Part shown: positions 11,575 through 46,725 of the stretch, piece by piece | Numbering within the stretch: the stretch's first letter is position 1 | How the letters are laid out: each line of letters opens with the position of its first letter | Notes under the pieces: generated by a model | What the model was told of the DNA's origin: nothing | Seen by the model: the letters and a program-made list of their open reading frames with translations, nothing else | The model's database searches: none | Virus record (IMG/VR): IMGVR_UViG_3300025276_000041 | Coordinates: 1 to 53,990 of that record | From: a virus | Taxonomy: Duplodnaviria; Caudoviricetes | Length of the DNA stretch: 53,990 bases | Direction: 5' to 3' (one strand) | Program-made: the position numbers and the translations under genes

Positions 11575-11585
11575 ATAAACTCAAC

Positions 11586-31917: not shown

Positions 31918-32416
31918 TTAAAAATTTATTTATTATATTACTAGCAAGGCTCTCAGTCCCTGAAAATTGATTTTGTATTCTATTAAAAAGTTTTTCAAAT
32001 TTTGAGCCTTTGTGATTTAACTTATCTGCTTCGTCTTGAAGTAGTTCCGTGTTCAAAGTTAGTGAAATTATTTTTTCTTTCAATAAATCGTTTTCTTCTA
32101 CTAAATCTTCGTATGTCATATAACGCTCAAAAGTTTCGTTATATATATCAACTAAATGTAAAACATAGTTGTATTTTTCTCTAAACCCCTCATCAAAAAG
32201 AATCCAGTTTTTTGCATTTGTTATGCCATGAATGACGGTTGCATGATTTCTCCCGGTCTTATTGCCAATAATGTTTAGTTGTTTTTTATAAACCTCTCTC
32301 ATTATCTTATAAAACACAGCCCTAGCCTCAACATATGGCCTTTCCCTAGTCTTTTGTTTAAGGCTTACTGAAAAGACTTTGTTGATTATTTTTTCTGTGT
32401 TATCCCATTCTTTCAT
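31901..32416 (-). CDS. DnaA C-terminal-like HTH DNA-binding protein with coiled coil
   Basis: KTRERPYVEAR...IGNKTGRNHATVIHG matches the DnaA domain IV signature (R...R...IG...GRDHTTV). Confidence 0.75.
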   Translation of the reverse strand: MKEWDNTEKIINKVFSVSLKQKTRERPYVEARAVFYKIMREVYKKQLNIIGNKTGRNHATVIHGITNAKNWILFDEGFREKYNYVLHLVDIYNETFERYMTYEDLVEENDLLKEKIISLTLNTELLQDEADKLNHKGSKFEKLFNRIQNQFSGTESLASNIINKFLNGLPV

Positions 32417-34454: not shown

Positions 34455-36884
34455 TTAGAATTCTATTTTGTTTGTTTTCTCAAGTTCATGCTTGCTTCTG
34501 CATCGAATCCACCTTCCTTTTTGATCTCTACCAATTTCTGGATCTACTTCGCTTCTGTACTCACAGTAAGCAACAATATTCTTGTTGAAACTAGACCTAG
34601 AAATAGTCATCTTTCCCCCCTTGGCATAGTCAGGATAATCTTGAATAAAGTCGTGATATAAGTCATTCTTATATACTTTCTCTCTAGTGTCAAGTTTTAA
34701 AATATATTCTGATTCAGAAGCATCATTAATTACACCACACCAATCAACAAAGTCTTGACCTGAAAAGTCAATTAATGTTTTCATTCTAAGATTTGCATAA
34801 CTACTTTTCACTAATCCTGTTTTCAGGTAAGAGCTTAAACAGTTAATCATGTAATTATCAAACTGACGCCACTCTTTATCGTCCCAATCACCGAACATTA
34901 ATTTCTTAAATTCATCAAGAGGCGTAAATGTTTTGTTATAGTATTGAGTTAGCTCAAGATCCCACTTCCTTCTTCTAAAAGAATTTCCAGCTCCCTTTAT
35001 TGCGTAATTAGTTGTAATTGCAATCTTCGGAGAACGATCAAAAGGAATCTTGATTGCGTCCTTGTTTTTTTTCTCTAACGTCAAACCTTCAGTAACTACA
35101 GAAAACAATCTTTCAAACTCAAAGTGCCTTTTGACATCGTCAAAACACAATATTTGTGTATCCGCCGAGACTAATTGATACGCAAAAGATCTTTCAAATG
35201 TAAAAGCCTTTCCGTCAATGACCACTAGCTTCTTCATCTGAGACAATGCGTTCATTAAAAGCCCCTTACCTGTTCCTCCTTCTGGATCGTCTGATATTAC
35301 CTCGTCATTAAGAATTACTGCGGGACAAAATGACAAATCTTTATAGCCATGCATCAAAAAACCAAGCGTACTCTCCACGCTTTTGATTCTCTTTACGTCT
35401 TGGGCAGATATGTTTTCAACGAATTGCTTAAAATCACAATCCTTGACTTCTTCAACATCAAAATTCCTGTCAATAACGTGGTCTTTCCACACATAACCAC
35501 CTAGATCAATGTAGTCTATGCTAGTAACGCCATCAGAACTAACTTTTATTGCGCAATTCTTGTAGTAGAGATAGCAAGCTATCTTAGTGTCGGCTATGAA
35601 GAATACATCTATAGAATAAAGTAGGGTAAGAAAGTCTTCTCTGAAAAACCTCGTGTTATCAGCAAAGTAATTATAAATCAAAGCGTCTTCTAGCTTCAAC
35701 AGGTAGTCTAGAATAAAGTCTTTAATCTCCTTCTCTGAAGTGTGGTCAATTAAGTTATTAGTTACCCTAACGAAAACATAATTCTTGCTCCCCTCAGGAT
35801 TATATTTGTAAAATCCATTATCTTCAAGGAACTGTTTAAACAGTATGTGAACTATCTTAACAGTACCCTTGTCCGACTTTGTCCAAAACTTTTGACTTGA
35901 TTGTTCTTCTTCAATCCTTGAAATCACCGAGTCGATTATACCGCCATCCACATTGGACTCTTCTAATTGCTGACGGATTTCTTTTTTTGGCACGCCACCT
36001 TTTAGCTTTGTCTTTATCTGGGAGACTTTTTCTTCGTCTTCATAATAACGACTGCCGAATTTTTGACTTTGAGCATATGCGCTATCTATAGTCCTCCTGA
36101 TTTCTGATAAAGGAAAGTTTTTTGTCTGGTAGTTAGTGGTGATGTACTCCGCTAAACTTTTATTGACTCCAAAATCATTAAGTGCTGCGGCTAGAATAAA
36201 TAAATTATGATTTCTTTGGCCCTCCACCATTGGATATTTTTTATCCCACCACTTTAGAAGGATGTCTACAATCTTATTTTCGTCTGTGATTGGTATGGTT
36301 GGCCGATCTCTATACTTGTCTAGCTCGGAATATGTTTGTTCCTCCAAGCTATTCCAAATGCTAGATGTAGGATTAATGTATATTAATGGATCGTAAGACT
36401 CATAACAAACCCTAGATATGTTTTTGCTTGTTTTATCAAAGTTCTCAGAACTAAAATGATTTTCTAAAGAATTAAAATAATTTTTATGGTTATCAATATC
36501 TGCTGGAATTTTAACTAAAGCCTTTAACCCTTTCCCAGATGGGCTAATAAAAACAGAGTAAACGTGTTTATCCTTGGAAAGTAGTTCTTTTTGTTCTAAA
36601 AGTTCTTTTTGCTTGGTGTAGCCATCAAAATCTAAGCAAACAAACCCACTATGTGACGCTATAGAGCTGTCAGAACGCTTGGTGAACTTCCCAGAAAAAC
36701 AAATTGCGGGAAGCTCTTGCTTTTTTTGATTAATTTTTTGTTTATCTGACTGTGTCCTGATGTTTTTGATCAGATCTTTTGAAGCTCCGTTTCTAATTCT
36801 CTCTAGGATCGTGTCTATACCACGATAAAATGGCTGATCCGTTTCTTTTATGTTTCTAAATATGGTTATAATTCCTTCTGTCAT
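34455..36884 (-). CDS. Primase-helicase (VirE-N/BT4734-like N-terminus, PriCT-like region, C-terminal P-loop helicase)
   Basis: KQELPAICFSG...CLDFD...SPSGKGLK...SYDP, then GQRNHNLF, then GGTGKG and CFDD. Confidence 0.85.
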   Translation of the reverse strand: MTEGIITIFRNIKETDQPFYRGIDTILERIRNGASKDLIKNIRTQSDKQKINQKKQELPAICFSGKFTKRSDSSIASHSGFVCLDFDGYTKQKELLEQKELLSKDKHVYSVFISPSGKGLKALVKIPADIDNHKNYFNSLENHFSSENFDKTSKNISRVCYESYDPLIYINPTSSIWNSLEEQTYSELDKYRDRPTIPITDENKIVDILLKWWDKKYPMVEGQRNHNLFILAAALNDFGVNKSLAEYITTNYQTKNFPLSEIRRTIDSAYAQSQKFGSRYYEDEEKVSQIKTKLKGGVPKKEIRQQLEESNVDGGIIDSVISRIEEEQSSQKFWTKSDKGTVKIVHILFKQFLEDNGFYKYNPEGSKNYVFVRVTNNLIDHTSEKEIKDFILDYLLKLEDALIYNYFADNTRFFREDFLTLLYSIDVFFIADTKIACYLYYKNCAIKVSSDGVTSIDYIDLGGYVWKDHVIDRNFDVEEVKDCDFKQFVENISAQDVKRIKSVESTLGFLMHGYKDLSFCPAVILNDEVISDDPEGGTGKGLLMNALSQMKKLVVIDGKAFTFERSFAYQLVSADTQILCFDDVKRHFEFERLFSVVTEGLTLEKKNKDAIKIPFDRSPKIAITTNYAIKGAGNSFRRRKWDLELTQYYNKTFTPLDEFKKLMFGDWDDKEWRQFDNYMINCLSSYLKTGLVKSSYANLRMKTLIDFSGQDFVDWCGVINDASESEYILKLDTREKVYKNDLYHDFIQDYPDYAKGGKMTISRSSFNKNIVAYCEYRSEVDPEIGRDQKGRWIRCRSKHELEKTNKIEF

Positions 36885-36905
36885 GATATTAAATAAGATT
36901 AGATT

Positions 36906-36931
36906 AAAGGGGGGTGTTTAAACGCCCCCCT
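36906..36931 (-). terminator. Terminator-like hairpin after the SSB gene
   Basis: Minus strand reads GGGGGGCG-TTTAAA-CACCCCCC-TTT. Confidence 0.65.
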
Positions 36932-36936
36932 ATAAA

Positions 36937-37194
36937 TTAGAATGGTAAATCAACGTCCTTCGGGGCGCTTGACTGACCATCTTGCTTCTTGGGAACAAAT
37001 GTATCAAGTTCAACGTAGTGTTTGCCACCTCGTGATTGATTGATGTTCATATTGACCCATCCGTTCTTTGCGTTTAAAGTCAAAAAGGCGATAGCCTCAT
37101 CAACTTTAACACTCATAGAACCTATAACCCATTCGGGTGCTGACTCTCTTTTCTTAAAAAGAAATCCATCTGCGAATATTTTATCTTCTGCCAT
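36937..37194 (-). CDS. Probable single-stranded DNA-binding protein
   Basis: Small beta protein ending in the SSB-type tail DVDLPF, next to the exonuclease/annealing genes. Confidence 0.6.
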   Translation of the reverse strand: MAEDKIFADGFLFKKRESAPEWVIGSMSVKVDEAIAFLTLNAKNGWVNMNINQSRGGKHYVELDTFVPKKQDGQSSAPKDVDLPF

Positions 37195-37243
37195 AGTTGT
37201 TTATTTAGCCCATTAATATAATGACTGCAAAGGTGGGCAACCT

Positions 37244-37999
37244 TTACAATACTTCCGAAATAAAATAATTGTCTACGTTCTCTACAGAATCTTCCGCAAA
37301 GAACTGCTTATAAACTTCTAAGGCCCTTTCAACCTTCTGCTCCCCGCCTCTGATAAACTCAATAGATGGGGTGTATTTTGCTAACCGATGCGTTTCCTTT
37401 TCAATCACATAAAATATTAATGGTTTCCCAAAAATAATTTGATAGATATAGCTTTGGCTATCGTAATTATACATCTTTGCAGAGTAGCGCCAATTGTCTA
37501 GCTTTCCTTTTCCACAAGTCTTTAAATCAATCAAAACGTTTTCGCTAGGCATGATAATATCACACTTACCCTTCCATGTGTGTCCCTTAATTTCTTGAAT
37601 CCCTGGAGTTTCAAACTCGTTGCCCTCAGCATAGATAGACTCATAGAAAGAAAAGTTACTTGTCATGCTCTTGGTCAAGGCGTCGATCTCTTCAGCTTCT
37701 TTTGTCAGCATTAACATCTCTTCACCGCTCTCCTCTATCGCTTCTTTATATAGCTTCGTGTTTCTAGAGGCGCAATCCACCAAGGTGAAGTTCTTTATTT
37801 TATCAGGCTCTAGTATTGCAGTATGAAAATACCTTCCCTCTATCAAGGGTTTTGACTCAGGTCGTGGTTTTCTGAACTGCTTAGGGTTATTCAACAGCAT
37901 TCCAATATCTGAATTAGATAAGAACTGCTTTCCAAATTCCCCATAATACTTATCGTCATTCTTGAGCTTGGCTATGGTTTCTTTTACACTAGAAATCAT
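37244..37999 (-). CDS. PD-(D/E)XK exonuclease (RecE/exonuclease VIII-like)
   Basis: LSNS, G..FH..ILEP, KGKCD, IDLKT and YNYDSQSYIY motifs. Confidence 0.8.
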   Translation of the reverse strand: MISSVKETIAKLKNDDKYYGEFGKQFLSNSDIGMLLNNPKQFRKPRPESKPLIEGRYFHTAILEPDKIKNFTLVDCASRNTKLYKEAIEESGEEMLMLTKEAEEIDALTKSMTSNFSFYESIYAEGNEFETPGIQEIKGHTWKGKCDIIMPSENVLIDLKTCGKGKLDNWRYSAKMYNYDSQSYIYQIIFGKPLIFYVIEKETHRLAKYTPSIEFIRGGEQKVERALEVYKQFFAEDSVENVDNYFISEVL

Positions 38000-38610
38000 G
38001 ATTTATTTCCGCTCAAAAACTTTTCTAAGTCTTTGTTTATGTTTTTCTTTACGCTAGAACTTATTGCATATTTAGTCTTTAGGTTCTTAATGATTTGCTC
38101 TAATCCTAGATGACTGTTAGAGGCCATGTAAGGGATAACTAGGTTTGTGTAGTTTTCATCACTAACATCTAAACTGATTACTTTTACTTCTTTGCTCTTT
38201 GGAGCTTCGGTAACAGTATCCGTAATATCCTCACCTATCCAAAGAGACAAACCTAAACCATGCAGTGCAATAGCTTTAGCCGTTGATCTTTGAATAGTTT
38301 TGTTGACCTCAAAAGATGTGACTTTCTCAATTGGAACAGCATTGTTTCTGTAGTCCATAATTGGTAAATAATCAATATGTTCGATTGTTTCAACTAAAAT
38401 ACCAACTTTTACATAAGCCGTTCGGCCATCCGTAAAAAAGTTTAGACCCGTAGATGGATCTTCGTATACTATTCTCTGAGCTAATGGATATGATTGCTTT
38501 AGCATTGACCAGGCATTTGCCCAAGATAGATAATCTAAATTACCTTTCCTTTGAACTTTGGATTTTACGTTTAAAACTGAAAGTGTTTGAAAAACTGATT
38601 TATCGTTCAT
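37996..38610 (-). CDS. Sak-type single-strand annealing protein (DUF1071-like)
   Basis: YLSWANAW, LPIMDYRN, NKTIQRSTAKAIALHGLGL motifs. Confidence 0.8.
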   Translation of the reverse strand: MNDKSVFQTLSVLNVKSKVQRKGNLDYLSWANAWSMLKQSYPLAQRIVYEDPSTGLNFFTDGRTAYVKVGILVETIEHIDYLPIMDYRNNAVPIEKVTSFEVNKTIQRSTAKAIALHGLGLSLWIGEDITDTVTEAPKSKEVKVISLDVSDENYTNLVIPYMASNSHLGLEQIIKNLKTKYAISSSVKKNINKDLEKFLSGNKS

Positions 38611-38992
38611 AATAATTGATTTTATTTTTAAGTAATTGAGATTTAATTGTTGCGTTGTTGTGAGCTGAAATTGCGTTATCTATGTACTTTTTGTTTTGAG
38701 GTTCAGCATTTTTTAAGCGATCCTCTAACTTAAATATTTTGTTATCACACCTGTCTAGAGCTAAAACTAAGACTCCCTTTTTCCACCCTTCGCTATATAG
38801 TATATGACAAAAAATGCTTGGCAAAGCCCTATAGAAATCGCCCTCATAGGCTATCCTAAGCATGTGACTGTTGTCGCTGTTTCTTTCGATTTTTATTCCG
38901 TTACACAAGTATGCTTGTGTGTCTTTTCTATGAAGTGGAGCGGATTCTGAGTCTTTAACTGCTTGATTCCAAAGCTCCTCAATACTATACAT
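38600..38992 (-). CDS. Hypothetical protein
   Basis: 130-aa ORF. Confidence 0.65.
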   Translation of the reverse strand: MYSIEELWNQAVKDSESAPLHRKDTQAYLCNGIKIERNSDNSHMLRIAYEGDFYRALPSIFCHILYSEGWKKGVLVLALDRCDNKIFKLEDRLKNAEPQNKKYIDNAISAHNNATIKSQLLKNKINYYER

Positions 38993-39125
38993 TCTCTTTA
39001 TTTATTGACTGTCTTTTCTGACCCAGATACTCCAGTGACTCTATCTCTCCAAAAAGAGTAAACAGATCTCGAATGACATCTATTGGTTTCTCCTTTAAAG
39101 GATCCTCATTATTAAATTTCTGCAT
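38985..39125 (-). CDS. Small hypothetical protein (46 aa)
   Basis: Translated by hand as MQKFNNEDPLKEKPIDV..., with an A-rich leader. Confidence 0.5.
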   Translation of the reverse strand: MQKFNNEDPLKEKPIDVIRDLFTLFGEIESLEYLGQKRQSINKENV

Positions 39126-39155
39126 TTTATTAAAATAAATTGTTATTAAACTAAG

Positions 39156-39401
39156 TTACAATTTTTGCTTATCACGACCAAATTTTATTAGGTCATTTTC
39201 TATTTTTAGATAAATTTCATTTTTTATACAATTGAGCATTAACCTCCTAAAGCTTATCACGTTTCGAGATACAGCATTACTAAGTATTTGTTTTTTCTCT
39301 TCTTGAGTATAAAAACTGTTGAATCCTATTTGTCTATCGACTTCTTCAACGTCGTCCGCAGACCACAATCCAACTAGCGTATTTGTTTTATTGTTTTTCA
39401 T
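39156..39401 (-). CDS. Hypothetical protein
   Basis: 81-aa ORF with an A-rich leader. Confidence 0.65.
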   Translation of the reverse strand: MKNNKTNTLVGLWSADDVEEVDRQIGFNSFYTQEEKKQILSNAVSRNVISFRRLMLNCIKNEIYLKIENDLIKFGRDKQKL

Positions 39402-39450
39402 TTTATTAAATTAAATAATTACATAAAGGGGGTATACTAACGTATCTTTT

Positions 39451-39795
39451 TTATTTCCCCCACTTTTCATTCTCGACGATCGTAGCAATAACGCTATAAT
39501 TAGCCAAATCCAGATAACTGTCATGCAGAGATTCGTGGTTAGGAACATTGGATTTATTAACAATATTCTCTATCCTTGCCATCTTGTCATTTGACCTAAA
39601 CCAGATACCCATTAAGGACATCTTCTTGTTGTCCTCATCTGACAAGTCTCGACCTAAAGCAATATTGCTAGAGCCATAGTCAAGCATCTTCCCGCAGAAG
39701 GTGTCGTACATCTCACCGAGCATATTTTTAAAAGCTTGGGATGTTTCAGGGAACCGCTTTTCGCAGTCTTTTGTTTGTTGGATAATGTCCTTCAT
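39451..39795 (-). CDS. Nucleotide-modification-associated domain 1 (DUF1599-like) protein
   Basis: K..DYG..NI...R.NDK..R...D...DLANY motif. Likely start at MKDII. Confidence 0.7.
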   Translation of the reverse strand: MKDIIQQTKDCEKRFPETSQAFKNMLGEMYDTFCGKMLDYGSSNIALGRDLSDEDNKKMSLMGIWFRSNDKMARIENIVNKSNVPNHESLHDSYLDLANYSVIATIVENEKWGK

Positions 39796-39956
39796 AATTC
39801 CTCGATGTTTTCGAGTTGCCACTCCAATGGGTTTGGCACTTCATACTCTTCCTGAACCAACTGACTCATGCTCATGGCTTCTCTCACCATGACGCATCCT
39901 TTAACCGCTATCGAATTTCGCAACGTAGGGGCGAAAAATAATCTAAACTGTTTCAT
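39792..39956 (-). CDS. Small hypothetical protein
   Basis: MKQFRLFF..., with ATGA overlaps at both ends. Confidence 0.55.
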   Translation of the reverse strand: MKQFRLFFAPTLRNSIAVKGCVMVREAMSMSQLVQEEYEVPNPLEWQLENIEEL

Positions 39957-40087
39957 TTTTTTAATTTTAACCATTTAACATACATTCTACTAGCGACTGC
40001 CATTCGCTGAGGCTTGAACTTATAAATCGATCTGATCCTAGCCATAGCTATACGGATAAATTGATTCATCTCATTTTTATTAATCAT
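39953..40087 (-). CDS. Small basic protein (44 aa, MINKNEMNQFIRIAMARIRSIYKFKPQRMAVASRMY...)
   Basis: Translated by hand. Has an A-rich leader downstream of the tRNA-like element. Confidence 0.6.
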   Translation of the reverse strand: MINKNEMNQFIRIAMARIRSIYKFKPQRMAVASRMYVKWLKLKK

Positions 40088-40127
40088 ATCTTTAATTTGA
40101 TTTCTTGGTTATTAACGCACTATGCGT

Positions 40128-40183
40128 TGAGCTGTCAGAGGACTCGAACCTCTCGTCTAACCACAAACGTACCATAGACAGCA
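40128..40183 (-). ncRNA. Miniature tRNA-like element lacking a D-stem
   Basis: GCUGUC / UAUGGUA / CGUUUG-UGGU-UAGACG / AGAGG-UUCGAGU-CCUCU / GACAGC-UCA gives an acceptor-like stem and a perfect T-arm. Confidence 0.65.
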
Positions 40184-40205
40184 ACAGACTGAGGCTTTGC
40201 CCCAA

Positions 40206-40496
40206 TCAATAATCTTCCCTAACTTGATTCGTTAGATATTCTTCTAATATTTCTCTGAGTTCCATTTTAAATTCTTTGGTCATGGGAACAACAAGCGTAT
40301 GATTACCGACAGCCAATACAACCCTAACATCTAGTACTTGCTCAAAGACTGTTTCACCTAAAGATCCGTACTCGGTGTAGTCCATGTGGTGAACTTCACT
40401 CTTGTACTGAACGTATGTATTTAGATCTGCATCAAAATGAAGGTCGTCTTCAAAGTCTGTCCACTCTGATTGATTCGATAAAATTCTATTTTCCAT
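40206..40496 (-). CDS. Hypothetical early protein
   Basis: 96-aa acidic ORF. Confidence 0.65.
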   Translation of the reverse strand: MENRILSNQSEWTDFEDDLHFDADLNTYVQYKSEVHHMDYTEYGSLGETVFEQVLDVRVVLAVGNHTLVVPMTKEFKMELREILEEYLTNQVREDY

Positions 40497-40595
40497 AACT
40501 ATATATTTAACTTGATTACTCGTTTGTTCTATAAAGAACGATAAAAACTACTACCCCACCAAAAATTACTCCGTGTAAAAATTCTGGGGTATACA

Positions 40596-40712
40596 TTACT
40601 TAGGTCTTTGGTCTCTGTCTACCATCCATACAAAAAATAGTATCATGAATCCTATGGTGAAGATTACGGCATCAAAAACACTTAGCCAATCTGAGTGTAG
40701 AAATATGTTCAT
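40596..40712 (-). CDS. Small membrane peptide (38 aa)
   Basis: Translated by hand as MNIFLHSDWLSVFDAVIFTIGFMILFFVWMVDRDQRPK, with an ATGA overlap. Confidence 0.55.
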   Translation of the reverse strand: MNIFLHSDWLSVFDAVIFTIGFMILFFVWMVDRDQRPK

Positions 40713-40825
40713 AGGTTAAATAGGTTTTTTAATATTGAACAAACATACATCGGAACGACAAATGTCATAACGATCAAAACAGTTGCCACAAATAGTGCGA
40801 CAGACTTCTGGAAGTTTTCTTTCAT
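40709..40825 (-). CDS. Small membrane peptide (38 aa)
   Basis: Translated by hand as MKENFQKSVALFVATVLIVMTFVVPMYVCSILKNLFNL, with an ATGA overlap. Confidence 0.55.
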   Translation of the reverse strand: MKENFQKSVALFVATVLIVMTFVVPMYVCSILKNLFNL

Positions 40826-41094
40826 AATCCTAAAGCTTTTTTAAGCGTTAATGTTGCCATCTCATCTTGGTACATCTCTTTCGCTACATCGTCAATAGAT
40901 ATCAGCGTGTATGGTTCAACACCAACAAGTTGTTCTACGACTCCATTATTAATCTCAATTACCCTGTCAAGCAGTTCGTTAAAGTAGTCCTGAGCCTCAT
41001 CGGTATAAGAGCCGTTTAAACGTCCTTTACCTTGGAAGTGCTGATCGACATACTCGCCAACCGCATCTATGATTTCAATTTCTCTATCATTCAT
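40822..41094 (-). CDS. Hypothetical early protein
   Basis: 90-aa ORF with ATGA overlaps. Confidence 0.65.
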   Translation of the reverse strand: MNDREIEIIDAVGEYVDQHFQGKGRLNGSYTDEAQDYFNELLDRVIEINNGVVEQLVGVEPYTLISIDDVAKEMYQDEMATLTLKKALGL

Positions 41095-41414
41095 GATTCT
41101 AGCATTTTAATAAATTCTACTACTGCTTGGTAGGTTCCTTGTAGCTTGGTTTGTCCTTGCTTACATATTGTTATACCACCCCCATTAATGTTGCACTCAA
41201 ACACTTCAATCATTACATTAAAGAAGTTATCTGAATTATCATCATTGTCTGTTGTGATGCATTCAATCTTCTCTACCACAGGCATCAACCAATTCCAATC
41301 GGTTTGAAATTTACTCAGAGATTTAATCGTGTGTGTCCACTCTCCGTTATCAAAACTTCTTTCATCTGAGTATTTCATACCCATAAATTCTGCAATCATT
41401 TTATTATTATTCAT
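41091..41414 (-). CDS. Early phage protein (WNWLMPVVEKIE family)
   Basis: NKMIAEFMG...DWNWLMPVVEKIE...YQAVVEFIK pattern, frequent in Bacteroidota phages. Confidence 0.7.
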   Translation of the reverse strand: MNNNKMIAEFMGMKYSDERSFDNGEWTHTIKSLSKFQTDWNWLMPVVEKIECITTDNDDNSDNFFNVMIEVFECNINGGGITICKQGQTKLQGTYQAVVEFIKMLES

Positions 41415-41430
41415 CTTAATTTATTTTTAA

Positions 41431-41456
41431 TGGTTATGACCATCCCCCGAAGGGGA
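41431..41456 (-). repeat. Early-leader repeat copy 5: hairpin + UGGUCAUAACCA
   Basis: UCCCC-UUCG-GGGGA-UGGUCAUAACCA-UUAAAA. AUAACC starts 23 nt before ATG 41414. Confidence 0.9.
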
Positions 41457-41472
41457 GGTGTTTAAACGAGCT

Positions 41473-41823
41473 CTATTCTGCATTTTTTGGGTAAAGCATC
41501 TGAGCTATATATGCATAGACTCTCTTAGCTTGGGCATCAGACATCTCTCCCGCCTCTTGGTGAATCGTCAGGATATTCATAACAAGAGCTAAGGTTGTAT
41601 CAACGCACCTTTGTGGAGGTAGTGAGGCTACTTCGTTAAATGCACCTAAGCTTACCCTCTCATCAAATCCCTCTTCATAAACGGACTCTGTAACTACCAT
41701 TCGATGTTTTTTTGCTTCTTTCTCTAAAGCCTTAAGACAAGAGATGTATGTCTCTTCACTATTAAATGTTGCTACCTTTTCTGCGTAAGAATGTTTTGGT
41801 GTTTCAAAATATACTGTTATCAT
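41473..41823 (-). CDS. Hypothetical early protein
   Basis: 116-aa ORF flanked by repeat copies. Confidence 0.7.
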   Translation of the reverse strand: MITVYFETPKHSYAEKVATFNSEETYISCLKALEKEAKKHRMVVTESVYEEGFDERVSLGAFNEVASLPPQRCVDTTLALVMNILTIHQEAGEMSDAQAKRVYAYIAQMLYPKNAE

Positions 41824-41839
41824 TTTAAATAAATTTAAT

Positions 41840-41865
41840 TGGTTATGACCATCCCCCGAAGGGGA
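41840..41865 (-). repeat. Early-leader repeat copy 4
   Basis: UCCCC-UUCG-GGGGA-UGGUCAUAACCA, 23 nt to ATG 41823. Confidence 0.9.
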
Positions 41866-41911
41866 TGCGCTTAAGATTTTAAAACTTACTTATGGCTAGC
41901 CCCCTTGCTTG

Positions 41912-42352
41912 TTAGTTTATCTTCCTCCAATATCCTTGAGCATATTTATCTTGACATAGCCAAGTATCTCGGTTAACACCTTTTACAACCGCAGTCCAAT
42001 GCGAGCCATATCCAACCCTGACATCAAAAATATAATTCTCATCTTCAGATAAGATACTCTTGTGCTTATACATAACTTGCTTTTTTCGGTCTTTAATAAG
42101 ACTGATTCTTTCCCAGCCTTTTCTTTCCATATAAATAGTCAAAGTAAATATTGAATTCCCGTCTGGTCTACCCAATTCGTTAACAGCTATGTCTGATAAA
42201 TCTCTAAGGGTTTGCATATAGTCTTGTTCTAAAGCTAAAGCGCAAGCCCTAACCGCACAATCCCCAACATAATCTTTTTTTCTTCCTGTGAGAAAATAGT
42301 TTTCCCTACCCCCGTGAGAAAGTTCATATTTGATATAATCGATTCTTTTCAT
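41912..42352 (-). CDS. Early protein with a papain-like Cys/His/Asp pattern
   Basis: GDCAVRA...HWTAV...DTW. Confidence 0.55.
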   Translation of the reverse strand: MKRIDYIKYELSHGGRENYFLTGRKKDYVGDCAVRACALALEQDYMQTLRDLSDIAVNELGRPDGNSIFTLTIYMERKGWERISLIKDRKKQVMYKHKSILSEDENYIFDVRVGYGSHWTAVVKGVNRDTWLCQDKYAQGYWRKIN

Positions 42353-42368
42353 AATAAATAGTTTTTAA

Positions 42369-42396
42369 TGGTTATGACCAAGCCCCCAGAGGGGCT
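42369..42396 (-). repeat. Early-leader repeat copy 3
   Basis: AGCCCC-UCUG-GGGGCU-UGGUCAUAACCA, 23 nt to ATG 42352. Confidence 0.9.
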
Positions 42397-42402
42397 AGAG
42401 TT

Positions 42403-42595
42403 TTAACAGTTTTCTTCACAGTATTCTTTGAATAGTCTAGATACTTTTCTATTCGTGTTTAGAGTATCTATAACTTCGCCTTCTAAAAGAACATCTGATC
42501 CAGATATAAACTATACCTTCATAGTTGATTGAGTAGACTTCACATCCTCTAAGCATTATTAAAGTGTCTAAAGAGTTTTCATTTAATGTATTCAT
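42403..42595 (-). pseudogene. Small early gene, apparently frameshifted
   Basis: The ATG 42595 frame stops after 48 codons. A +1 frame (ISGSDVLLEGEVIDTLNTNRKVSRLFKEYCEENC) runs to TAA at 42403, next to the repeat. Confidence 0.4.
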
Positions 42596-42610
42596 GATAT
42601 ATAATTTTAA

Positions 42611-42638
42611 TGGTTATGACCATCCCCTATAAAGGGGA
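42611..42638 (-). repeat. Early-leader repeat copy 2
   Basis: UCCCCU-UUAU-AGGGGA-UGGUCAUAACCA, 22 nt to ATG 42595. Confidence 0.9.
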
Positions 42639-42648
42639 ATGGAGGCGT

Positions 42649-43263
42649 TTAAACGACTTGAAGTGATCCATCTGCACACGCTAAACAATCGATGTCTTCA
42701 TCTACAAAGACATTGCCTAGCATTGAGTCGATGTTCTTTTGACTCGTCCTAAAGCTAAATCCGCAACACTCACACTCTACCTTTATGTTTCGTGTTCCTT
42801 GCTTTTTGGCGTTAGTCGGAGTAGTCATCATGTCGTGCGGGAACTCGCCGATCTTCTTGACAATCTTATCACATTTAGACTTTAACTCTGGGCCCGCCTC
42901 GGTAGCTCTCATCTTGCCCGTAAGGCCGATCTTGAGCGCCATGTCTCTGAAGACTTTGCCGTGGCCGTTCTTGTTATTGTCAATTGCGTGGATCAGCTCA
43001 TGAGCTAGGACATCGAGTGTTCTGGAGCTCTTCTTGCGATCAAAGAAAAACGGGTTCATGAATATCTCATGATTGCCCGCAGTGCTACATGATGTGTGCC
43101 AATTTTCGCCGATGCTAAGATTTTTCTGTTTCCTAGTTCCACTGCTCATTATTGATACAGACACATTTACTTTAGGAACTTTTAGCCCGACAGGCTCAAA
43201 GACCTCCCTTGATAGCTCTTGAACTCCTAGTTGGAGCCAAGCTTCTCTATTAACAGTTTTCAT
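42649..43263 (-). CDS. SprT-like zinc metalloprotease with C-terminal Zn ribbon
   Basis: LAHELIH...HGKVF, CECC and CLAC. First gene of the early arm. Confidence 0.8.
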   Translation of the reverse strand: MKTVNREAWLQLGVQELSREVFEPVGLKVPKVNVSVSIMSSGTRKQKNLSIGENWHTSCSTAGNHEIFMNPFFFDRKKSSRTLDVLAHELIHAIDNNKNGHGKVFRDMALKIGLTGKMRATEAGPELKSKCDKIVKKIGEFPHDMMTTPTNAKKQGTRNIKVECECCGFSFRTSQKNIDSMLGNVFVDEDIDCLACADGSLQVV

Positions 43264-43279
43264 AATAAATAATTTTAAT

Positions 43280-43429
43280 GGTTATGACCAACTAGGTAAA
43301 CGATACCTAGTCAGTTGGTTTCGGGCATTGCTGTGGAAGAGTCTTGATACTTACCTCCTAGCCTACGTTTGATCCAGATAGCCCCACCACATCCCTGTGG
43401 CATGCCCCTCTCGGGGTCTTCAGATAACC
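43280..43429 (-). ncRNA. Hammerhead-ribozyme-like RNA with an enlarged, non-canonical stem II region (contains repeat copy 1)
   Basis: GGUUAU-CUGAAGA (43429-43417) ... GAAA-CCAA (43322-43315) ... UUGG-UC/AUAACC (43291-43280). Stems I and III and all conserved core bases are present. Stem II needs an insertion. Confidence 0.65.
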
Positions 43430-43635
43430 TCTCTGGCGTAGCGAGCTTTCGCTCGGTTTTAAGGACATGGATAATGCAACTGATTTTGTGCAGTTTTAAC
43501 TCTGCCATCCGTCTCTCGGGCTCTAACCGACTCTCGGGGTGGAGGATTTAACGATTATCATGCATCAAAGTGCTGACAATCAGGGTGTTACGTTGCGATT
43601 TCCAATATTTCAATGTACAGTGTGCCTCAACAGCT
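43430..43635 (-). ncRNA. Structured 5' part of the early leader RNA
   Basis: GAUUGUCA/UGAUAAUC stem, GAGC-GAAA-GCUC, repeated CCCGAGAG hairpin loops and a boxA-like GUACAUUGAAAUAUUG. Confidence 0.55.
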
Positions 43636-43638
43636 CTG

Positions 43639-43670
43639 TAACAATACGACCTTTTTATTACCTGACCAAA
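43639..43670 (-). promoter_or_regulatory. Candidate early promoter (TTTG-N20-TATTGTTA)
   Basis: Bacteroidota -33 TTTG with correct spacing to a degenerate -7 box (2 mismatches to TAnnTTTG). Confidence 0.45.
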
Positions 43671-44119
43671 TCTTCATGACTCACACTAGGTTTGCGGACT
43701 TTGGTATTCTTACTTTTTGTTTAACCCTTTGTTCATCAGGCGTTTAAACGACACAACATTATATGCTGTCGGACAATAGTAAAATCATTTATAGATGTGA
43801 AAGATGGGCGAGGGGTTAAGGGAAGGCTCTTTCCCTCTGAACTTTCATTCACCCTTGAGGGGAAGGTGTGGGGGTGTGGAGGTGGTGGTGTTTACATTGT
43901 CAAATTCCAAGGTCATGATGCGTGGTAAGTAGCTACAGATACCAAGATGCACCACCTATAGCTAGGCCAAAACAAAAAGCCAAAATAATCGGAAGGAAAT
44001 TTTTGAAACAGAACCCCCCCCTCAAAAAAAAAGTCGTTTTCCAAATCGACCGATGGCGCCCGTAGCCGCAGAGAACCCAAACACTAAATACATCTAATAT
44101 GATTTTGTATCTTTACCGA

Positions 44120-44269
44120 GTGATAGAATCCTACGAGATAGAAATTGTAAATCGTTTAACTATAGGGCCTTGTTTTGGTTTCTCTATATATTTAAAGGAC
44201 GATGACAATGAAATGGGTGAGTGGGTTCTTTATTTAGGATTAATAAGTATTCATTTAAAATATTGGTAA
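44120..44269 (+). CDS. Small hypothetical protein (49 aa), probably leaderless
   Basis: Translated by hand as (M)IESYEIEIVNRLTIGPCFGFSIY...SIHLKYW. GTG lies just after TATCTTTA (44108-44115). Confidence 0.55.
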   Translation: MIESYEIEIVNRLTIGPCFGFSIYLKDDDNEMGEWVLYLGLISIHLKYW

Positions 44270-44270
44270 T

Positions 44271-44456
44271 ATGAAAAACATGGGAGGATTAGACATTAAC
44301 GATGGTCGTTTAATTAATAATGATCCAGCGTCTCAAATTGGTATTCAAAAGATTGTTCGACAAGCTCAATTTTTAAATGCTACAAAGTTGAGTACATTAA
44401 GAAACATTGCTAATGATTCTAAGATGAACATTATGGTAAACATGATGAAGAAGTAG
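44271..44456 (+). CDS. Hypothetical protein
   Basis: 61-aa ORF followed by a terminator. Confidence 0.65.
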   Translation: MKNMGGLDINDGRLINNDPASQIGIQKIVRQAQFLNATKLSTLRNIANDSKMNIMVNMMKK

Positions 44457-44480
44457 TCTTTTTTTATTAGTGTATTATAG

Positions 44481-44508
44481 AAAGGAGTCTTAGGATTCCT
44501 TTTTTTTT
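44481..44508 (+). terminator. Intrinsic terminator
   Basis: AAGGAGTC-TTAG-GATTCCTT followed by a T-run. Confidence 0.8.
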
Positions 44509-44732
44509 ACATCATATATTGGTTTTATGTCGCTTTTTGTATAAATATTCCAGACATATTCCAGTATAAATGTCGTTTATATTACTGATTATTAGAGAGA
44601 TGACAGTTATGACAGTAAATAGACCTTTTGAATTAAAATAAAAAAATATAATAGTAGTATAAAAATATATATATATATATAAAACACTAAAACTCTGGAA
44701 TCGTGTCATTAATGTTTTGTCTATGTTTTGTC

Positions 44733-44740
44733 TATCTTTG
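44733..44740 (+). promoter_or_regulatory. -7 promoter box TATCTTTG for groEL
   Basis: TAnnTTTG 20 nt upstream of ATG 44760. Confidence 0.65.
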
Positions 44741-44759
44741 TTATAAATCAAATTAAATT

Positions 44760-46379
44760 ATGAGTGAATTAGGATATAGCCCAAAGGATTTAACCTTTGA
44801 TTCAAATGCGCGCAAGCGTCTTCAGAGTGGTATAAAAAAGATTAGTAAGGCGGTAAAGTCTACATTAGGCCCTAGGGGTAAGACTGTCTTGATAGAGAGT
44901 CAGAATCATACTAGGGGAATTACCGTTACTAAGGACGGTGTGACTGTAGCAAAGAGCATAGACTTATTAGATCCTGTAGAGAACCTGGCGATACGTATGG
45001 TCAAGGAGGCTGCGGACAATACTGCAACTAGTGCTGGTGATGGAACGACTACGGCTATAGTCTTGACCGAGGCGATTGCATCGTTGGGCATGGATGCCAT
45101 AGATGATAGTGTCAGCTCTACCGAGGTGATAAGAGAGATAGGGAAGCTCACTGACGATGTGGTGAAGCGATTGAAGAAGATGTCGAGGAAACTTGGCAAG
45201 CGAGGACTGCTTGATGTAGCTACGATAAGCTCTAATAATGACAAGGAGATAGGTCGGGTGATTGCTGATGTGTACGGGGCGATTGGTGACAATGGTCTTG
45301 TGACGGTAGAGAAGAGCATGACCGAGGAGACGTACCACGAGGTGACGGATGGGATAAAGATTGACAAGGGTTATACCAACAAGATGTTCGTCAACAACCA
45401 GAAGAAGGACGAGTGCATACTAGAGGACGCTCATATTCTTATGACAGACCACGAGATTACAAACGTTCTGGCGATAGAGAGCATACTAAAGCCCGTGATA
45501 CAGAGTGGACAGCCACTACTGATTATTGGGAGCTGTTCAAACCAGGTGGTGAACACCTTGGCGGCCAATGTTGTCAAGAGCGGTCTGAAGATATGTAACA
45601 TAATGCCTCCTCAGTTTGGATACAAGCAGCATGAGTTGATGGGTGATATAGCCGTCAGTGTGGCTGGGAAGTTTATGAGCGAGAGCCTTGGCGATGACCT
45701 TAGCACAATAACCATGGCTGACCTAGGTAAGGCAGAGAAGGTGATTGTAGGGAAAGATAACACGATAATCATACGTAACGAAACTAATCCAGAGAGCATA
45801 AAGGCCAGAGTAGAGGAGCTTTGGGTTGCTCATGACCATGCTAAGATTAAGCACGAGCGTGACTTCGTAAAAGAGAGAATCGCATCCTTAACGGGAGGGA
45901 TAGGAGTGATATATGTCGGTGCCAATAGTGATATCGAGCAGAAAGAGAAGTACGATAGGGTTGACGATGCCGTGTGTGCCGTCAGATCCGCACTCGAAGA
46001 GGGTGTGTTGCCAGGAGGAGGGCTTGCCCTGTACAACCTGAGCCATAAGTATATGCTCAACGACAAGATGTGGGACGCTAAACAGAGCAGTAAAGAGTCT
46101 CGTATCGCCAATAGAATAATGTCAGAGGCGCTTGTGTCTCCCATGAAGCAGATTATGGTCAACGCGGGTCTAGACCTAGACACTATTATGGACAGTGTTC
46201 AGGGTGAGAACGTAGGCTACGACGTGAAGAACGAATGCTATGGTGATATGTTTAAGATGGGGGTGGTTGACCCACTAAAAGTCACAAAGAACGCGCTAAA
46301 GAACGCATCGAGTGTCGCGACAACGATCCTCAGTACCAACGCCATTGTAACTTTGGCTAGGACATATACCGCTGAATAG
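44760..46379 (+). CDS. groEL: Phage-encoded chaperonin GroEL
   Basis: TLGPRG, TKDGVTVAK, AGDGTTTA, GVLPGGG and GVVDPLKV motifs. No GGM tail. Confidence 0.97.
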   Translation: MSELGYSPKDLTFDSNARKRLQSGIKKISKAVKSTLGPRGKTVLIESQNHTRGITVTKDGVTVAKSIDLLDPVENLAIRMVKEAADNTATSAGDGTTTAIVLTEAIASLGMDAIDDSVSSTEVIREIGKLTDDVVKRLKKMSRKLGKRGLLDVATISSNNDKEIGRVIADVYGAIGDNGLVTVEKSMTEETYHEVTDGIKIDKGYTNKMFVNNQKKDECILEDAHILMTDHEITNVLAIESILKPVIQSGQPLLIIGSCSNQVVNTLAANVVKSGLKICNIMPPQFGYKQHELMGDIAVSVAGKFMSESLGDDLSTITMADLGKAEKVIVGKDNTIIIRNETNPESIKARVEELWVAHDHAKIKHERDFVKERIASLTGGIGVIYVGANSDIEQKEKYDRVDDAVCAVRSALEEGVLPGGGLALYNLSHKYMLNDKMWDAKQSSKESRIANRIMSEALVSPMKQIMVNAGLDLDTIMDSVQGENVGYDVKNECYGDMFKMGVVDPLKVTKNALKNASSVATTILSTNAIVTLARTYTAE

Positions 46380-46416
46380 TTAAAAAATTCGAACACTAAG
46401 CCTTGAAACAAAAGAT

Positions 46417-46725
46417 ATGAAGCCAATTGGGAAATATATTATCATAAATAAGATTAGCGAGCAGGTAAAGACAGATTCGGGGCTTATTCTCTCTGATGAC
46501 GAGGCGACAACCTTCAGATATAAGAAGGCAGAGGTCGTTAAGGTGGGCACGGAGGTGACTGCTATTGCCGATGGGGACATAATATACTATGACCGCAACA
46601 CAGGGCACACTATGATTATCGATGAGACAACATACTCGGTGATTACCGAGAGAGACGTCGTAGTTGTTGACTCTCCTGGCGAAGATTCAGCATATACTTC
46701 CGATAAACCTTGTCAGTGTAAGTAG
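46417..46725 (+). CDS. groES: Co-chaperonin GroES
   Basis: MKPIG...KTDSGLIL...VVKVG...GD...ERDVVVV, directly after groEL. Confidence 0.9.
   Translation: MKPIGKYIIINKISEQVKTDSGLILSDDEATTFRYKKAEVVKVGTEVTAIADGDIIYYDRNTGHTMIIDETTYSVITERDVVVVDSPGEDSAYTSDKPCQCK

What the first reader, a model, noticed from the sequence alone, without database searches (positions are those of the whole stretch)
41431..43429. One hammerhead-like ribozyme with five matching target sites: candidate multi-site mRNA-processing system in the early operon
Seen in sequence: the minus-strand leader contains GGUUAU-CUGAAGA (43429-43417) and GAAA-CCAA (43322-43315), the two conserved halves of a hammerhead core (CUGANGA, GAAA). 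The arms pair exactly with UUGG-UC/AUAACC, giving a canonical GUC site with predicted cleavage between 43286 and 43285. The same 12-mer UGGUCAUAACCA recurs, without its own catalytic core, at 42611-42622, 42369-42380, 41840-41851 and 41431-41442. Each copy is directly preceded by a hairpin and has the scissile bond 22-23 nt upstream of a start codon. Established: natural hammerheads are almost always cis self-cleavers with one site each, and T7 uses host RNase III for this kind of early-mRNA processing. Inference: a single enzyme strand cuts the polycistron at five sites, in trans or long-range cis. That would release mRNAs with identical 5'-OH AUAACCA-A-rich leaders and hairpin-protected 3' ends, and the adjacent hairpin could stack on the short stem III. 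Caveat: stem II is not canonical.
Basis: partly seen in the sequence, partly recalled or inferred. Interest (0 to 1): 0.95.

Follow-up and report, generated by a model that had tools for sequence, protein, structure and literature searches.

The report
One hammerhead ribozyme, many cut sites
A marine phage carries one self-cutting RNA (a hammerhead ribozyme) at the head of its early gene string and a short matching tag before each gene, so a single ribozyme may cut the long message into single-gene messages, which has not been described for a natural hammerhead.

Summary
The window is a whole 53,990-bp contig of a podovirus-like phage of Flavobacteriia. All stated motifs are at the stated coordinates.

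I first read the repeats as promoter/terminator cassettes. Relatives changed that. They carry canonical type I hammerheads at the same intercistronic position: 41 in 28 loci by my scanner, and 43 hits in 27 of 100 loci with my own covariance model. Their cut-to-ATG distance is similar: 20-33 nt in 37 of 41, against 22-23 nt here.

The window's leader core (GGUUAU-CUGAAGA ... GAAAC-CAA ... GUC^AUAACC) closely resembles them but carries a 94-nt stretch between its two core halves.

A second lineage repeats the layout: one expanded core (GUAACU-CUGAUGA ... GAAACA) and 46 distinct site contexts, UGU(C/U)^AGUUAC. Core arms and sites co-vary between the lineages. Position 17 is the least conserved core position there (C 34, U 12, never G).

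Cleavage itself is not shown. The core is non-canonical, Rfam finds nothing, and the arms are weak (-4.2 kcal/mol).

Confidence in multi-site cutting: about 0.5.

The parts
43754..43784 (-). Weak host-type (Bacteroidetes) promoter-like site, TTTT-N19-TAATGTTG, upstream of the leader
   Evidence: Read. One mismatch to TAnnTTTG, which I recall as the Bacteroidetes -7 box. The box is TGATGTTG in L203/L200, and the region is replaced in L025. Inferred only.
43430..43730 (-). 5' part of the conserved non-coding leader RNA
   Evidence: The leader (window about 43257-43730) is 93-94% identical to L025, against 80% for the flank further upstream. No ORF is kept across variants. A 290-nt contig from an RNA library covers 43337-43626 and nothing else in 36000-46000. 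Folding z-score is only -0.08.
43424..43429 (-). Hammerhead stem I, 5' strand (GGUUAU); pairs with AUAACC of every site
   Evidence: Invariant in window, L025 and L203. The counterpart is GGUUAA in canonical hammerheads of L177 and GUAACU in the second lineage.
43417..43423 (-). Hammerhead core strand CUGAAGA (C3-A9)
   Evidence: The same word is the core of a canonical hammerhead in L177.
43405..43416 (-). Hairpin CCCC-GAGA-GGGG directly after the core strand (stem II candidate)
   Evidence: Compensatory change to CUCC-GAGA-GGAG in L025 and L203.
43323..43404 (-). 82-nt insertion between the stem II hairpin and GAAA; this is the non-canonical feature
   Evidence: An alternative stem II, GGGCAU/AUGCCC, would close most of it, but it gains an A.C mismatch in L025 and L203.
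43315..43322 (-). GAAA (G12-A15.1) plus stem III 5' arm CCAA
   Evidence: Invariant in all three leader variants.
43279..43314 (-). Site 1: linker CUGA, hairpin 43310-43292, UUGGUC^AUAACCA. Predicted cut between 43286 and 43285, 22 nt before the ATG at 43263 (SprT-like gene)
   Evidence: In L203 the hairpin keeps pairing through a G.U pair on this strand. Pfam SprT-like, E 8.4e-09.
42611..42642 (-). Site 2, coreless: hairpin plus UGGUC^AUAACCA. Predicted cut 42618/42617, 22 nt before the ATG at 42595
42369..42396 (-). Site 3, coreless: hairpin plus UGGUC^AUAACCA. Predicted cut 42376/42375, 23 nt before the ATG at 42352
41840..41867 (-). Site 4, coreless: UUCG-loop hairpin plus UGGUC^AUAACCA. 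Predicted cut 41847/41846, 23 nt before the ATG at 41823
41431..41458 (-). Site 5, coreless: UUCG-loop hairpin plus UGGUC^AUAACCA. Predicted cut 41438/41437, 23 nt before the ATG at 41414

Best explanation
The leftward early operon is probably transcribed as one long RNA that begins with a non-coding leader of about 450 nt. This step is inferred.

The 3' end of the leader is an expanded type I hammerhead. In order it holds arm I (GGUUAU), CUGAAGA, a stem II hairpin, an 82-nt insertion, GAAA and arm III (CCAA). A 4-nt linker joins this core to the first 'site module', which is a hairpin followed by UUGGUC^AUAACCA.

Four more site modules, without any core of their own, sit 22-23 nt before the start codons of the next four small genes. 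Close variants have up to 13 such coreless sites.

The proposed mechanism has these steps.
- The one core pairs with each module through stem I (GGUUAU with AUAACC, 6 bp).
- It also pairs through a short proximal stem III (ACC with GGU, 3 bp).
- The module's own hairpin stacks on that short stem III.
- The core cuts after the C of GUC, in long-range cis on the same transcript or in trans.

Each upstream message would then end in a hairpin with a cyclic phosphate. Each downstream message would begin with 5'-OH AUAACCA and an A-rich leader, which suits a host that does not use Shine-Dalgarno sites.

Shown here: the sequence layout, its close resemblance to canonical hammerheads of relatives, and co-variation of core and sites between two lineages. 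Inferred: transcription as one RNA, any cleavage, and the way the insertion is accommodated.
For: 1. Relatives have canonical type I hammerheads at the same junctions. My scanner found 41 in 28 loci, with GUC in 31 and GUA in 5, and the cut 20-33 nt before the next ATG in 37 of 41.

2. A covariance model built from 24 of them found 43 hits at E <= 0.001 in 27 of the 100 loci searched (L071-L170). In my count 20 of the 43 are the model's own seed stretches, which match by construction. Rfam scores one of the relatives' elements as Hammerhead_1 (24.9 bits, E 0.022) and as RAGATH-1-hammerhead (28.7 bits), both below gathering.

3. The window core matches those of L177 almost word for word. L177 reads GGUUAA-CUGAAGA-...-GAAAC-...-GUC^UUAACCAUAAAC. 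The window reads GGUUAU-CUGAAGA-...-GAAAC-...-GUC^AUAACCAUUAAAA. The pair next to the core is swapped from A-U to U-A.

4. In the five loci where I printed every matching site (L094, L160, L177, L106, L144), each site that sits just before a start codon has its own core. Only two lineages show many coreless sites. Each has exactly one core with matching arms, placed before the first site:
- window lineage: 5, 14, 3, 4 and 7 sites in window, L201, L202, L203 and L204 (my scan listed 8 in the window, of which I set 3 genic words aside as chance);
- second lineage: 10-13 sites in L457, L496, L530 and L540.

5. Core and sites co-vary between these two lineages. Stem I is GGUUAU/AUAACC against GUAACU/AGUUAC. 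Pair 15.3/16.3 is C-G (G in 24 of 24 sites) against A-U (U in 39 of 46).

6. In the second lineage, position 17 is the least conserved position of the core from 16.3 through the box, at 34 of 46. It is C in 34 and U in 12, never G or A. A hammerhead leaves this nucleotide unpaired and requires only that it not be G. U16.1 and G16.2 are kept in 45 of 46.

7. The box is invariant while the adjoining hairpins differ and co-vary: GCCCC/GGGGC, AUCCCC/GGGGAU, CGCUCC/GGAGCG. This argues for selection on the box itself.

8. In both lineages site 1 is joined to the core by an unpaired linker (CUGA; CAAAUGA) on the 5' strand of stem III. It therefore already has the geometry proposed for the coreless sites.

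9. No canonical hammerhead exists anywhere in the window (best 12.2 bits, filters off).

10. The only piece of 36000-46000 present in an RNA library is a 290-nt contig inside the leader. This is a weak hint only.
Against: 1. The core is not a canonical hammerhead. There are 94 nt between CUGAAGA and GAAA, and no helix closes that stretch directly: the first and last bases are C and C.

2. The compensatory change supports the local hairpin and weakens the alternative stem II.

3. Rfam finds no hammerhead at E <= 10 in 40500-44500, nor at E <= 1 in L201.

4. My own model does not score the window core. In L201 it scores only a spurious alternative at 16.2 bits.

5. The second-lineage cores reach only 18.8-20.4 bits, E 0.035-0.095. 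With filters off, the same model did not recover the L530 match at all (best 7.9 bits, a different alignment). Their 10.1/11.1 position is U/C.

6. In the partition function of the leader, stem I pairs have probability 0.0002 or less and stem III pairs 0.02-0.05. GUUAUCUGA instead pairs with 43665-43657 (p 0.55-0.75).

7. Stem I is worth only -4.2 kcal/mol as a free duplex, and stem III offers only 3 bp at coreless sites. Free trans action would be weak.

8. After cutting site 1 the core keeps its own 3' end in stem III.

9. Leader variants are too alike to test the core. No substitutions fall in it, but only about 10 differences occur in 190 nt (my count from the alignment).

10. Site identity could in part reflect spread of one module by recombination.

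11. The two leaders are not detectably alike (nhmmer, E <= 1).
Confidence: 0.5

Rival explanations
1. Only site 1 is cut, in cis, by the leader hammerhead. The coreless modules descend from former cis hammerheads that lost their 5' halves. They survive as message punctuation: a hairpin that protects the 3' end, and a conserved tag in the translation start region that is read or cut by a protein.
For: Relatives have one core per site, so loss of cores is an easy evolutionary path. The arms are too weak for efficient trans action (-4.2 kcal/mol). After self-cleavage the core keeps its own product strand. Cassettes are shuffled between variants at these modules, so one module type could spread by recombination.
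Against: It does not explain why an 11-nt box stays invariant in 24 of 24 contexts, and 9 nt in the second lineage, while the adjoining hairpins diverge. It does not explain why position 17 is the least conserved core position and is never G. It does not explain why 16.3 follows the core's 15.3 in each lineage. No RNase, sigma factor or RNA polymerase was found: the two family lists named none for the 44 ORFs scanned, and the 24 further ORFs scanned one by one gave none either.
Confidence: 0.25
2. The leader RNA pairs with the boxes but does not cut them. It acts as an antisense regulator of the translation start regions of all tagged genes.
For: The same co-variation of arms and boxes. The leader appears as RNA in one metatranscriptome contig.
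Against: Pairing is only 6 + 3 bp and is interrupted exactly at an unpaired C/U. GUC/GUU and the hammerhead core words are kept. Relatives use true hammerheads at the same place.
Confidence: 0.1
3. The hairpin plus box is a DNA-level promoter/terminator cassette, like the PeSLs of T4-type phages. The box would be a phage-specific promoter element.
For: The box sits 25-28 nt before the ATG. Host-type TAnnTTTG boxes sit 23-56 nt before plus-strand genes. None lies between genes from about 40750 to 43800 on the minus strand. The modules bound single-gene cassettes whose number and order differ between close variants, as PeSLs do (PMC2839356 and PMC4122927, passages read).
Against: No RNA polymerase or sigma factor was found. 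The giant protein's relatives carry polyvalent-protein domains: LPD38, LPD23 and ART-PolyVal. Its DFDDD word is not conserved, and a profile found nothing in PDB. The matching positions in relatives are hammerhead cleavage sites. A promoter would not explain the C/U-only variation at position 17 or the match to the arms of the one core. The hairpins lack the T-run that this phage's late terminators have.
Confidence: 0.08
4. Chance resemblance: CUGAAGA and GAAA happen to lie near words complementary to a repeat.
For: A scan of very many windows will throw up some such coincidences. Rfam is silent.
Against: The same layout, with different and mutually compensated arms, recurs in a second lineage. 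Canonical hammerheads occupy the same position in relatives.
Confidence: 0.02

Closest known systems
Tandem cis-acting hammerheads that flank genes in prophage and phage polycistronic transcripts (Perreault et al. 2011, PMC3088659; passages read; supplements not seen)
   Same: Hammerheads sit between ORFs of phage operons and are proposed to cut long transcripts into single-gene messages. In haloviruses HF1/HF2 the site lies 13 nt before an early start codon. The window's relatives fit this picture exactly.
   Different: In that paper every cut site has its own complete core. Here one expanded core faces 5 sites in the window and up to 14 in variants, of which all but the first lack a core.
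Discontinuous hammerhead in mammalian Clec2 3' UTRs (recalled from memory; only the phrase appeared in search listings)
   Same: Enzyme and substrate parts of one hammerhead are separated by a long intervening sequence within one transcript.
   Different: That case has one site only, and the break lies elsewhere. It is not a phage operon.
Engineered trans-cleaving hammerheads with two binding arms (recalled; abstracts of PMC6412130 and PMC3064770 seen in the listing)
   Same: One enzyme strand with arm I and arm III recognises NUH sites by base pairing. The proposed action on coreless sites has this format.
   Different: Those are man-made, with arms usually longer than the 6 + 3 bp here. Here the substrate brings its own hairpin to extend stem III.
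PeSLs (promoter-early stem-loops) of T4-type phages (PMC2839356 and PMC4122927; passages read)
   Same: Repeated composite intergenic modules containing a stem-loop bound small ORFan cassettes that are inserted, lost and reordered between close relatives.
   Different: PeSLs are sigma-70 promoters plus terminators acting on DNA and transcription. Here no host-type promoter box is present, and the conserved part matches a ribozyme's arms.
RNase III processing of T7 early mRNA (recalled)
   Same: A polycistronic early transcript is cut between genes, leaving 3' hairpins.
   Different: That cut is made by a host protein enzyme on long irregular hairpins, with no sequence tag.

Membership tests
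Hammerhead ribozyme (leader core, 43429-43279) | Conserved core words CUGANGA and GAAA, with an A15.1-U16.1 pair and a cleavage triplet NUH | tested here: met
   CUGAAGA at 43423-43417, GAAA at 43322-43319, A43319 opposite U43287, GUC with C at 43286.
Hammerhead ribozyme (leader core, 43429-43279) | Stem I formed by the sequence 5' of the core and 3' of the cut, supported by co-variation | tested here: met
   GGUUAU/AUAACC here, GGUUAA/UUAACC in L177, GUAACU/AGUUAC in the second lineage.
Hammerhead ribozyme (leader core, 43429-43279) | Stem II bridges A9 and G12 directly, making a three-way junction | tested here: not met
   94 nt lie between the core halves, and the first and last bases are C and C. 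A co-varying hairpin follows A9, but 82 nt separate it from GAAA. In the second lineage two extra hairpins lie between A9 and a 3-bp stem II.
Hammerhead ribozyme (leader core, 43429-43279) | Scored by covariance models of the family | tested here: not met
   Rfam gives no hit at E <= 10. My model R1 gives no hit at the core. The 151-nt span may exceed what the model can bridge, so this is weak evidence. Second-lineage cores score 18.8-20.4 bits with default filters, but the L530 match was not recovered with filters off.
Hammerhead ribozyme (leader core, 43429-43279) | Self-cleavage by internal transesterification | not testable with these tools
   Needs in vitro transcription or end-specific RNA sequencing.
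Hammerhead substrate sites (four coreless modules) | Complementarity to both arms of an enzyme strand around an unpaired H17 | tested here: met
   GGU and AUAACC are invariant in 24 of 24 contexts. In the second lineage U16.3 is kept in 39 of 46, G16.2 and U16.1 in 45 of 46, and H17 is C 34 / U 12.
Hammerhead substrate sites (four coreless modules) | Own catalytic core in cis | tested here: not met
   No CUGANGA with a matching arm lies near sites 2-5. There is no GAA before the hairpins in the second lineage.
PeSL (T4-type promoter-early stem-loop) | Host-type early promoter inside the repeat | tested here: not met
   No TAnnTTTG lies between genes from about 40750 to 43800 on the minus strand. 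The sigma-70-type matches overlap the ATG and are not above shuffles (13 against 8.3 +/- 2.9).
PeSL (T4-type promoter-early stem-loop) | Repeats bound ORFan cassettes that differ between close relatives | tested here: met
   There are 0, 1, 2 and 6 cassettes between the leader and the SprT-like gene in window, L202, L203 and L201. Two cassettes are in reversed order in L203 relative to L201.

The most novel reading that the evidence does not exclude
The leader is a phage-encoded, multiple-turnover RNA endonuclease. After freeing itself at site 1, the roughly 450-nt RNA, with its extra domains standing in for the missing tertiary contacts, would cut every message that carries the hairpin-GGUC^AUAACCA tag. 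Any newly acquired gene cassette would then be processed simply by carrying the tag. This would be the first natural small ribozyme that works in trans on many substrates, a counterpart of RNase P built from a hammerhead.
Probability: 0.25. Interest if true: 0.95.

Novelty: new variant of a known kind. Interest (0 to 1): 0.85.

Why it matters
Natural hammerheads are known as self-cleavers with one core per site. An abstract seen in a search listing says as much (PMC6412130).

A natural system with one core and many coreless sites would matter in four ways.
- It would show that evolution found the trans-acting two-arm design that engineers later built.
- It would give a testable case of ribozyme-based operon processing in a host that lacks Shine-Dalgarno-led translation.
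- It would offer a compact tag-and-cut system for synthetic operons.
- It would link ribozyme tags to the shuffling of phage gene cassettes.

Even if only site 1 is cut, three things remain new descriptions as far as my three searches show (listings only, plus passages of PMC3088659). These are the expanded cores, the dense use of hammerheads in this family of marine flavobacterial phages, and the fossil-like sites.

Tried and rejected
Promoter/terminator reading. My first reading, held until, was a cassette junction with a phage-specific promoter, and I rated the hammerhead idea at about 10%. I dropped it when a context print for relative L177 showed a canonical hammerhead at the same junction.

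Virion RNA polymerase. The 2831-aa protein has a DFDDD word at residue 2701, but only 1 of 10 relatives keeps a like word at that place. It has no PDB match, alone or as a profile. Its only Pfam hit is DUF7178, below cut-off. Its relatives carry polyvalent-protein domains.

Searches that gave nothing useful:
- The exact motif in GTDB genomes gave single chance matches only.
- The phage collection held nothing like the region except SprT fragments.
- nhmmer with the leader found only its own lineage.

Weak or negative structure evidence:
- The leader's folding energy is no better than shuffles: z -0.08 on the sense strand and +0.36 on the antisense.
- Hairpins fold only slightly better on the sense strand than the antisense: -236 against -224 kcal/mol over 19 copies, and -87 against -78 over 10.
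- The 65-aa ORF at 43311-43508 is not conserved.

RNA runs X22-X24 laid nothing on the stretch. This is no evidence of absence.

Palindromic 16-mers before early genes in MW202828, L167, L154, L108 and L115 are a separate kind of element that I did not explain.

Supplements of PMC3088659 and PMC5335546 were not seen. They may hold examples or phage ncRNAs that bear on novelty.


Full report
WHAT THE WINDOW IS

The window is a whole 53,990-bp contig of a podovirus-like phage.
- Its terminase is most like those of Flavobacterium, Cellulophaga and Tenacibaculum phages. The best match is MW202828.1, at 73% amino-acid identity.
- Plus-strand genes carry TAnnTTTG boxes 23-56 nt before their start codons. 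I recall this word as the Bacteroidetes -7 promoter box.
- Start codons lack Shine-Dalgarno words and follow A-rich leaders.
- Among the 68 ORFs scanned against Pfam or PHROGs, nothing was named an RNA polymerase, sigma factor or ribonuclease. For 44 of these I saw only the list of families matched.
- The 2831-aa virion-module protein belongs with 'polyvalent' proteins. Its relatives carry LPD38, LPD23, ART-PolyVal and HTH domains.

THE OBSERVATION

- The 12-mer UGGUCAUAACCA occurs five times exactly, all on the minus strand within 1.9 kb.
- Each copy directly follows a G+C-rich hairpin.
- The bond after GUC lies 22-23 nt before an ATG.
- GGUUAU-CUGAAGA (43429-43417) and GAAA-CCAA (43322-43315) lie in the non-coding leader, upstream of the first copy.

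MY FIRST READING, AND WHY I LEFT IT

Rfam found no hammerhead, even at E <= 10. No helix closes the 94 nt between the two core halves. A compensatory change in two variants (CCCC-GAGA-GGGG to CUCC-GAGA-GGAG) supports a local hairpin instead. Predicted pairing probabilities for the hammerhead stems are near zero.

Close variants from metagenomes have the same leader and 3-14 copies of the module. The number and order of the single-gene cassettes between modules differ among them. This resembles the PeSL cassettes of T4-type phages. I therefore took the box for a phage-specific promoter or a protein-RNase site.

THE TURN

I printed repeat contexts in more distant relatives, which I had fetched through the primase-helicase and the GroEL-like gene. 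One locus, L177, showed a textbook hammerhead at the same junction:

GGUUAA-CUGAUGA-GUCC AUAA GGAC-GAAAC-CAGCC UAC GGCUG-GUC^UUAACC

Three lines of evidence followed.
- Rfam scores it as Hammerhead_1 (24.9 bits, E 0.022) and as RAGATH-1-hammerhead (28.7 bits), both below gathering.
- A pairing-aware scan of all relatives found 41 such elements in 28 loci. The cleavage triplet is GUC in 31 and GUA in 5. The cut lies 20-33 nt before the next ATG in 37 of 41.
- A covariance model built from 24 of them found 43 hits at E <= 0.001 in 27 of the 100 loci searched. In my count 20 of these are the model's own seed stretches. It also found 14 elements that were not in its seed, at 23-70 bits.

Multiple cis hammerheads that flank genes in prophage operons are known (PMC3088659, passages). 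So the relatives are ordinary members of a known kind.

THE WINDOW AGAINST THE RELATIVES

One L177 element reads GGUUAA-CUGAAGA-GGUC UAAUU GACC-GAAAC-UGCC GAAA GGCA-GUC^UUAACCAUAAAC.

The window reads GGUUAU-CUGAAGA-CCCC GAGA GGGG-[82 nt]-GAAAC-CAA-CUGA-[hairpin]-UUG-GUC^AUAACCAUUAAAA.

The two match nearly word for word. The stem I pair next to the core is swapped from A-U to U-A. The 'hairpin plus box' of the window is therefore the stem III hairpin, the cleavage triplet and the 3' strand of stem I of a hammerhead.

In the five relatives where I printed every matching site, each site that sits just before a start codon has its own core. In the window only the first does, and no canonical hammerhead exists anywhere in the genome (best 12.2 bits with filters off).

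A SECOND LINEAGE WITH THE SAME LAYOUT

Loci L118, L457, L496, L530, L540 and L515 carry 46 distinct contexts of hairpin-UGU(C/U)^AGUUACAAA. The cut lies 23-26 nt before an ATG in 37 of 46. A few of the 46 lack a hairpin and are probably not sites.

In L457, L471, L496, L530 and L540, where the upstream sequence is held, exactly one core with matching arms precedes the first site. (L540 and L118 also hold one canonical hammerhead with different arms.) It reads:

GUAACU-CUGAUGA-UG-[hairpin]-A-[hairpin]-[ACY UUAAAU RGU]-C-GAAAC-A-CAAAUGA-[hairpin]-U-GUC^AGUUAC

Four base pairs in its hairpins show compensatory changes among the variants. My model scores these cores at 18.8-20.4 bits (E 0.035-0.095 in 193 kb). 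With filters off, the L530 match was not recovered.

Both lineages that have coreless sites thus have a single, expanded core.

CO-VARIATION

Between the two lineages stem I differs at four of six positions, and all four are compensated: GGUUAU/AUAACC against GUAACU/AGUUAC.

On the other side of the cut, the core's 15.3 is C where the sites have G (24 of 24). It is A where the sites have U (39 of 46).

In the second lineage, position 17 is the least conserved position of the core from 16.3 through the box, at 34 of 46 against 39 of 46 or more elsewhere. It is C in 34 and U in 12, never G. A hammerhead leaves this nucleotide unpaired and requires only that it not be G.

The adjoining hairpins differ freely and co-vary. 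The boxes are therefore held by selection rather than by recent copying alone.

GEOMETRY

In both lineages the core is joined to site 1 by an unpaired linker on the 5' strand of stem III. Only 3-5 bp of proximal stem III come from the core. The rest of stem III is the module's own hairpin. A coreless site could dock in the same way, minus the covalent linker.

WHAT SPEAKS AGAINST MULTI-SITE CUTTING

- The core departs from the family's defining three-way junction.
- No covariance model scores it.
- Stem I is worth only -4.2 kcal/mol as a free duplex.
- The proximal stem III is only 3 bp.
- After self-cleavage the core keeps its own product strand.
- The thermodynamic model prefers to pair GUUAUCUGA with 43665-43657.
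- The leader is no more stable than shuffled sequence.
- The leaders of the two lineages are not detectably alike.
- Nothing here shows cleavage.

The one RNA-library contig, at 43337-43626, shows only that part of the leader occurs in an RNA library.

VERDICT

- The hammerhead identity of the element is well supported by its close match to relatives' hammerheads and by co-variation.
- The single-core, many-site reading is the best explanation, at about 0.5.
- Rivals are the relic reading (0.25), pairing without cutting (0.1), a DNA-level promoter cassette (0.08) and chance (0.02).
- Three literature searches, read as listings plus passages of PMC3088659, found no description of a natural hammerhead serving many coreless sites.

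Noticed in passing
window 11580-11615, 29955-29990 (+), 36900-36935 (-): GTTTAAAC (8 copies in the contig) forms the centre of G+C-rich palindromic terminator-like hairpins after the capsid-region gene, after the giant gene and before the primase-helicase gene. Partial copies (CGTTTAAACRCC) also precede several site hairpins and the start of the leader.
   Followed up: partly
window 21460-29955 (+): The 2831-aa protein at the end of the virion module has a conserved HExxH word and a strongly conserved C-terminal stretch of about 1200 aa with no PDB or Pfam match. Its relatives carry LPD38, LPD23, ART-PolyVal, DUF3293 and HTH domains, so it is a polyvalent, probably injected, protein.
   Followed up: partly
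window 4199, 8992, 12427, 13121, 18854, 44733, 47215, 49272, 49886, 51422 (+): TAnnTTTG boxes lie 23-56 nt before plus-strand start codons, some with TTG/TTTG 17-23 nt upstream. They are likely host-type promoters for the structural and GroEL-like genes.
   Followed up: partly
window 43800-44760: The divergent intergenic region holds an (AT)n run and short direct repeats (ATAGACAAAAC x2, CTGTCAT x2, CTGGAATAT x2). Relatives have tandem 9-10-mers at the same place (L126, L138, L152, L156). It may be an origin or an operator region. A DnaA-C-like HTH protein is encoded at 31901-32416 (-).
   Followed up: no
L001 (MW202828.1) 700-7800; L167, L154, L108, L115: Other relatives carry perfect 14-16-nt palindromes (for example GTGTCGTTAACGACAC, 12 copies) 12-40 nt before early start codons. 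In L167 one follows a canonical hammerhead by 20 nt. Their function is unexplained.
   Followed up: partly
L201 6786-7000: One coreless site is followed by a non-coding stretch of about 190 nt, closed by AAGGG/CCCUU, before the next start codon. It contains CUGAUAA...GAAAC, a hammerhead-like core with G8 replaced. Rfam finds nothing.
   Followed up: partly
window 41000-44000 (runs X1-X19): The stretch is held almost word for word (0.96-0.98 of sampled words) in 19 DNA runs of marine, seawater and sponge metagenomes from 8 coded studies, 2017-2025. The phage is widespread or recurrent.
   Followed up: no
window 44760-46725 (+): The phage encodes GroEL-like (539 aa) and GroES-like (102 aa) chaperonins next to the divergent region.
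   Followed up: no
window 9495, 11256, 23223 (-): Three further GTCATAACC words lie antisense within plus-strand genes. I estimate about 0.2 expected by chance per strand. None is preceded by a site-type G+C-rich hairpin in the 25 nt printed.
   Followed up: no
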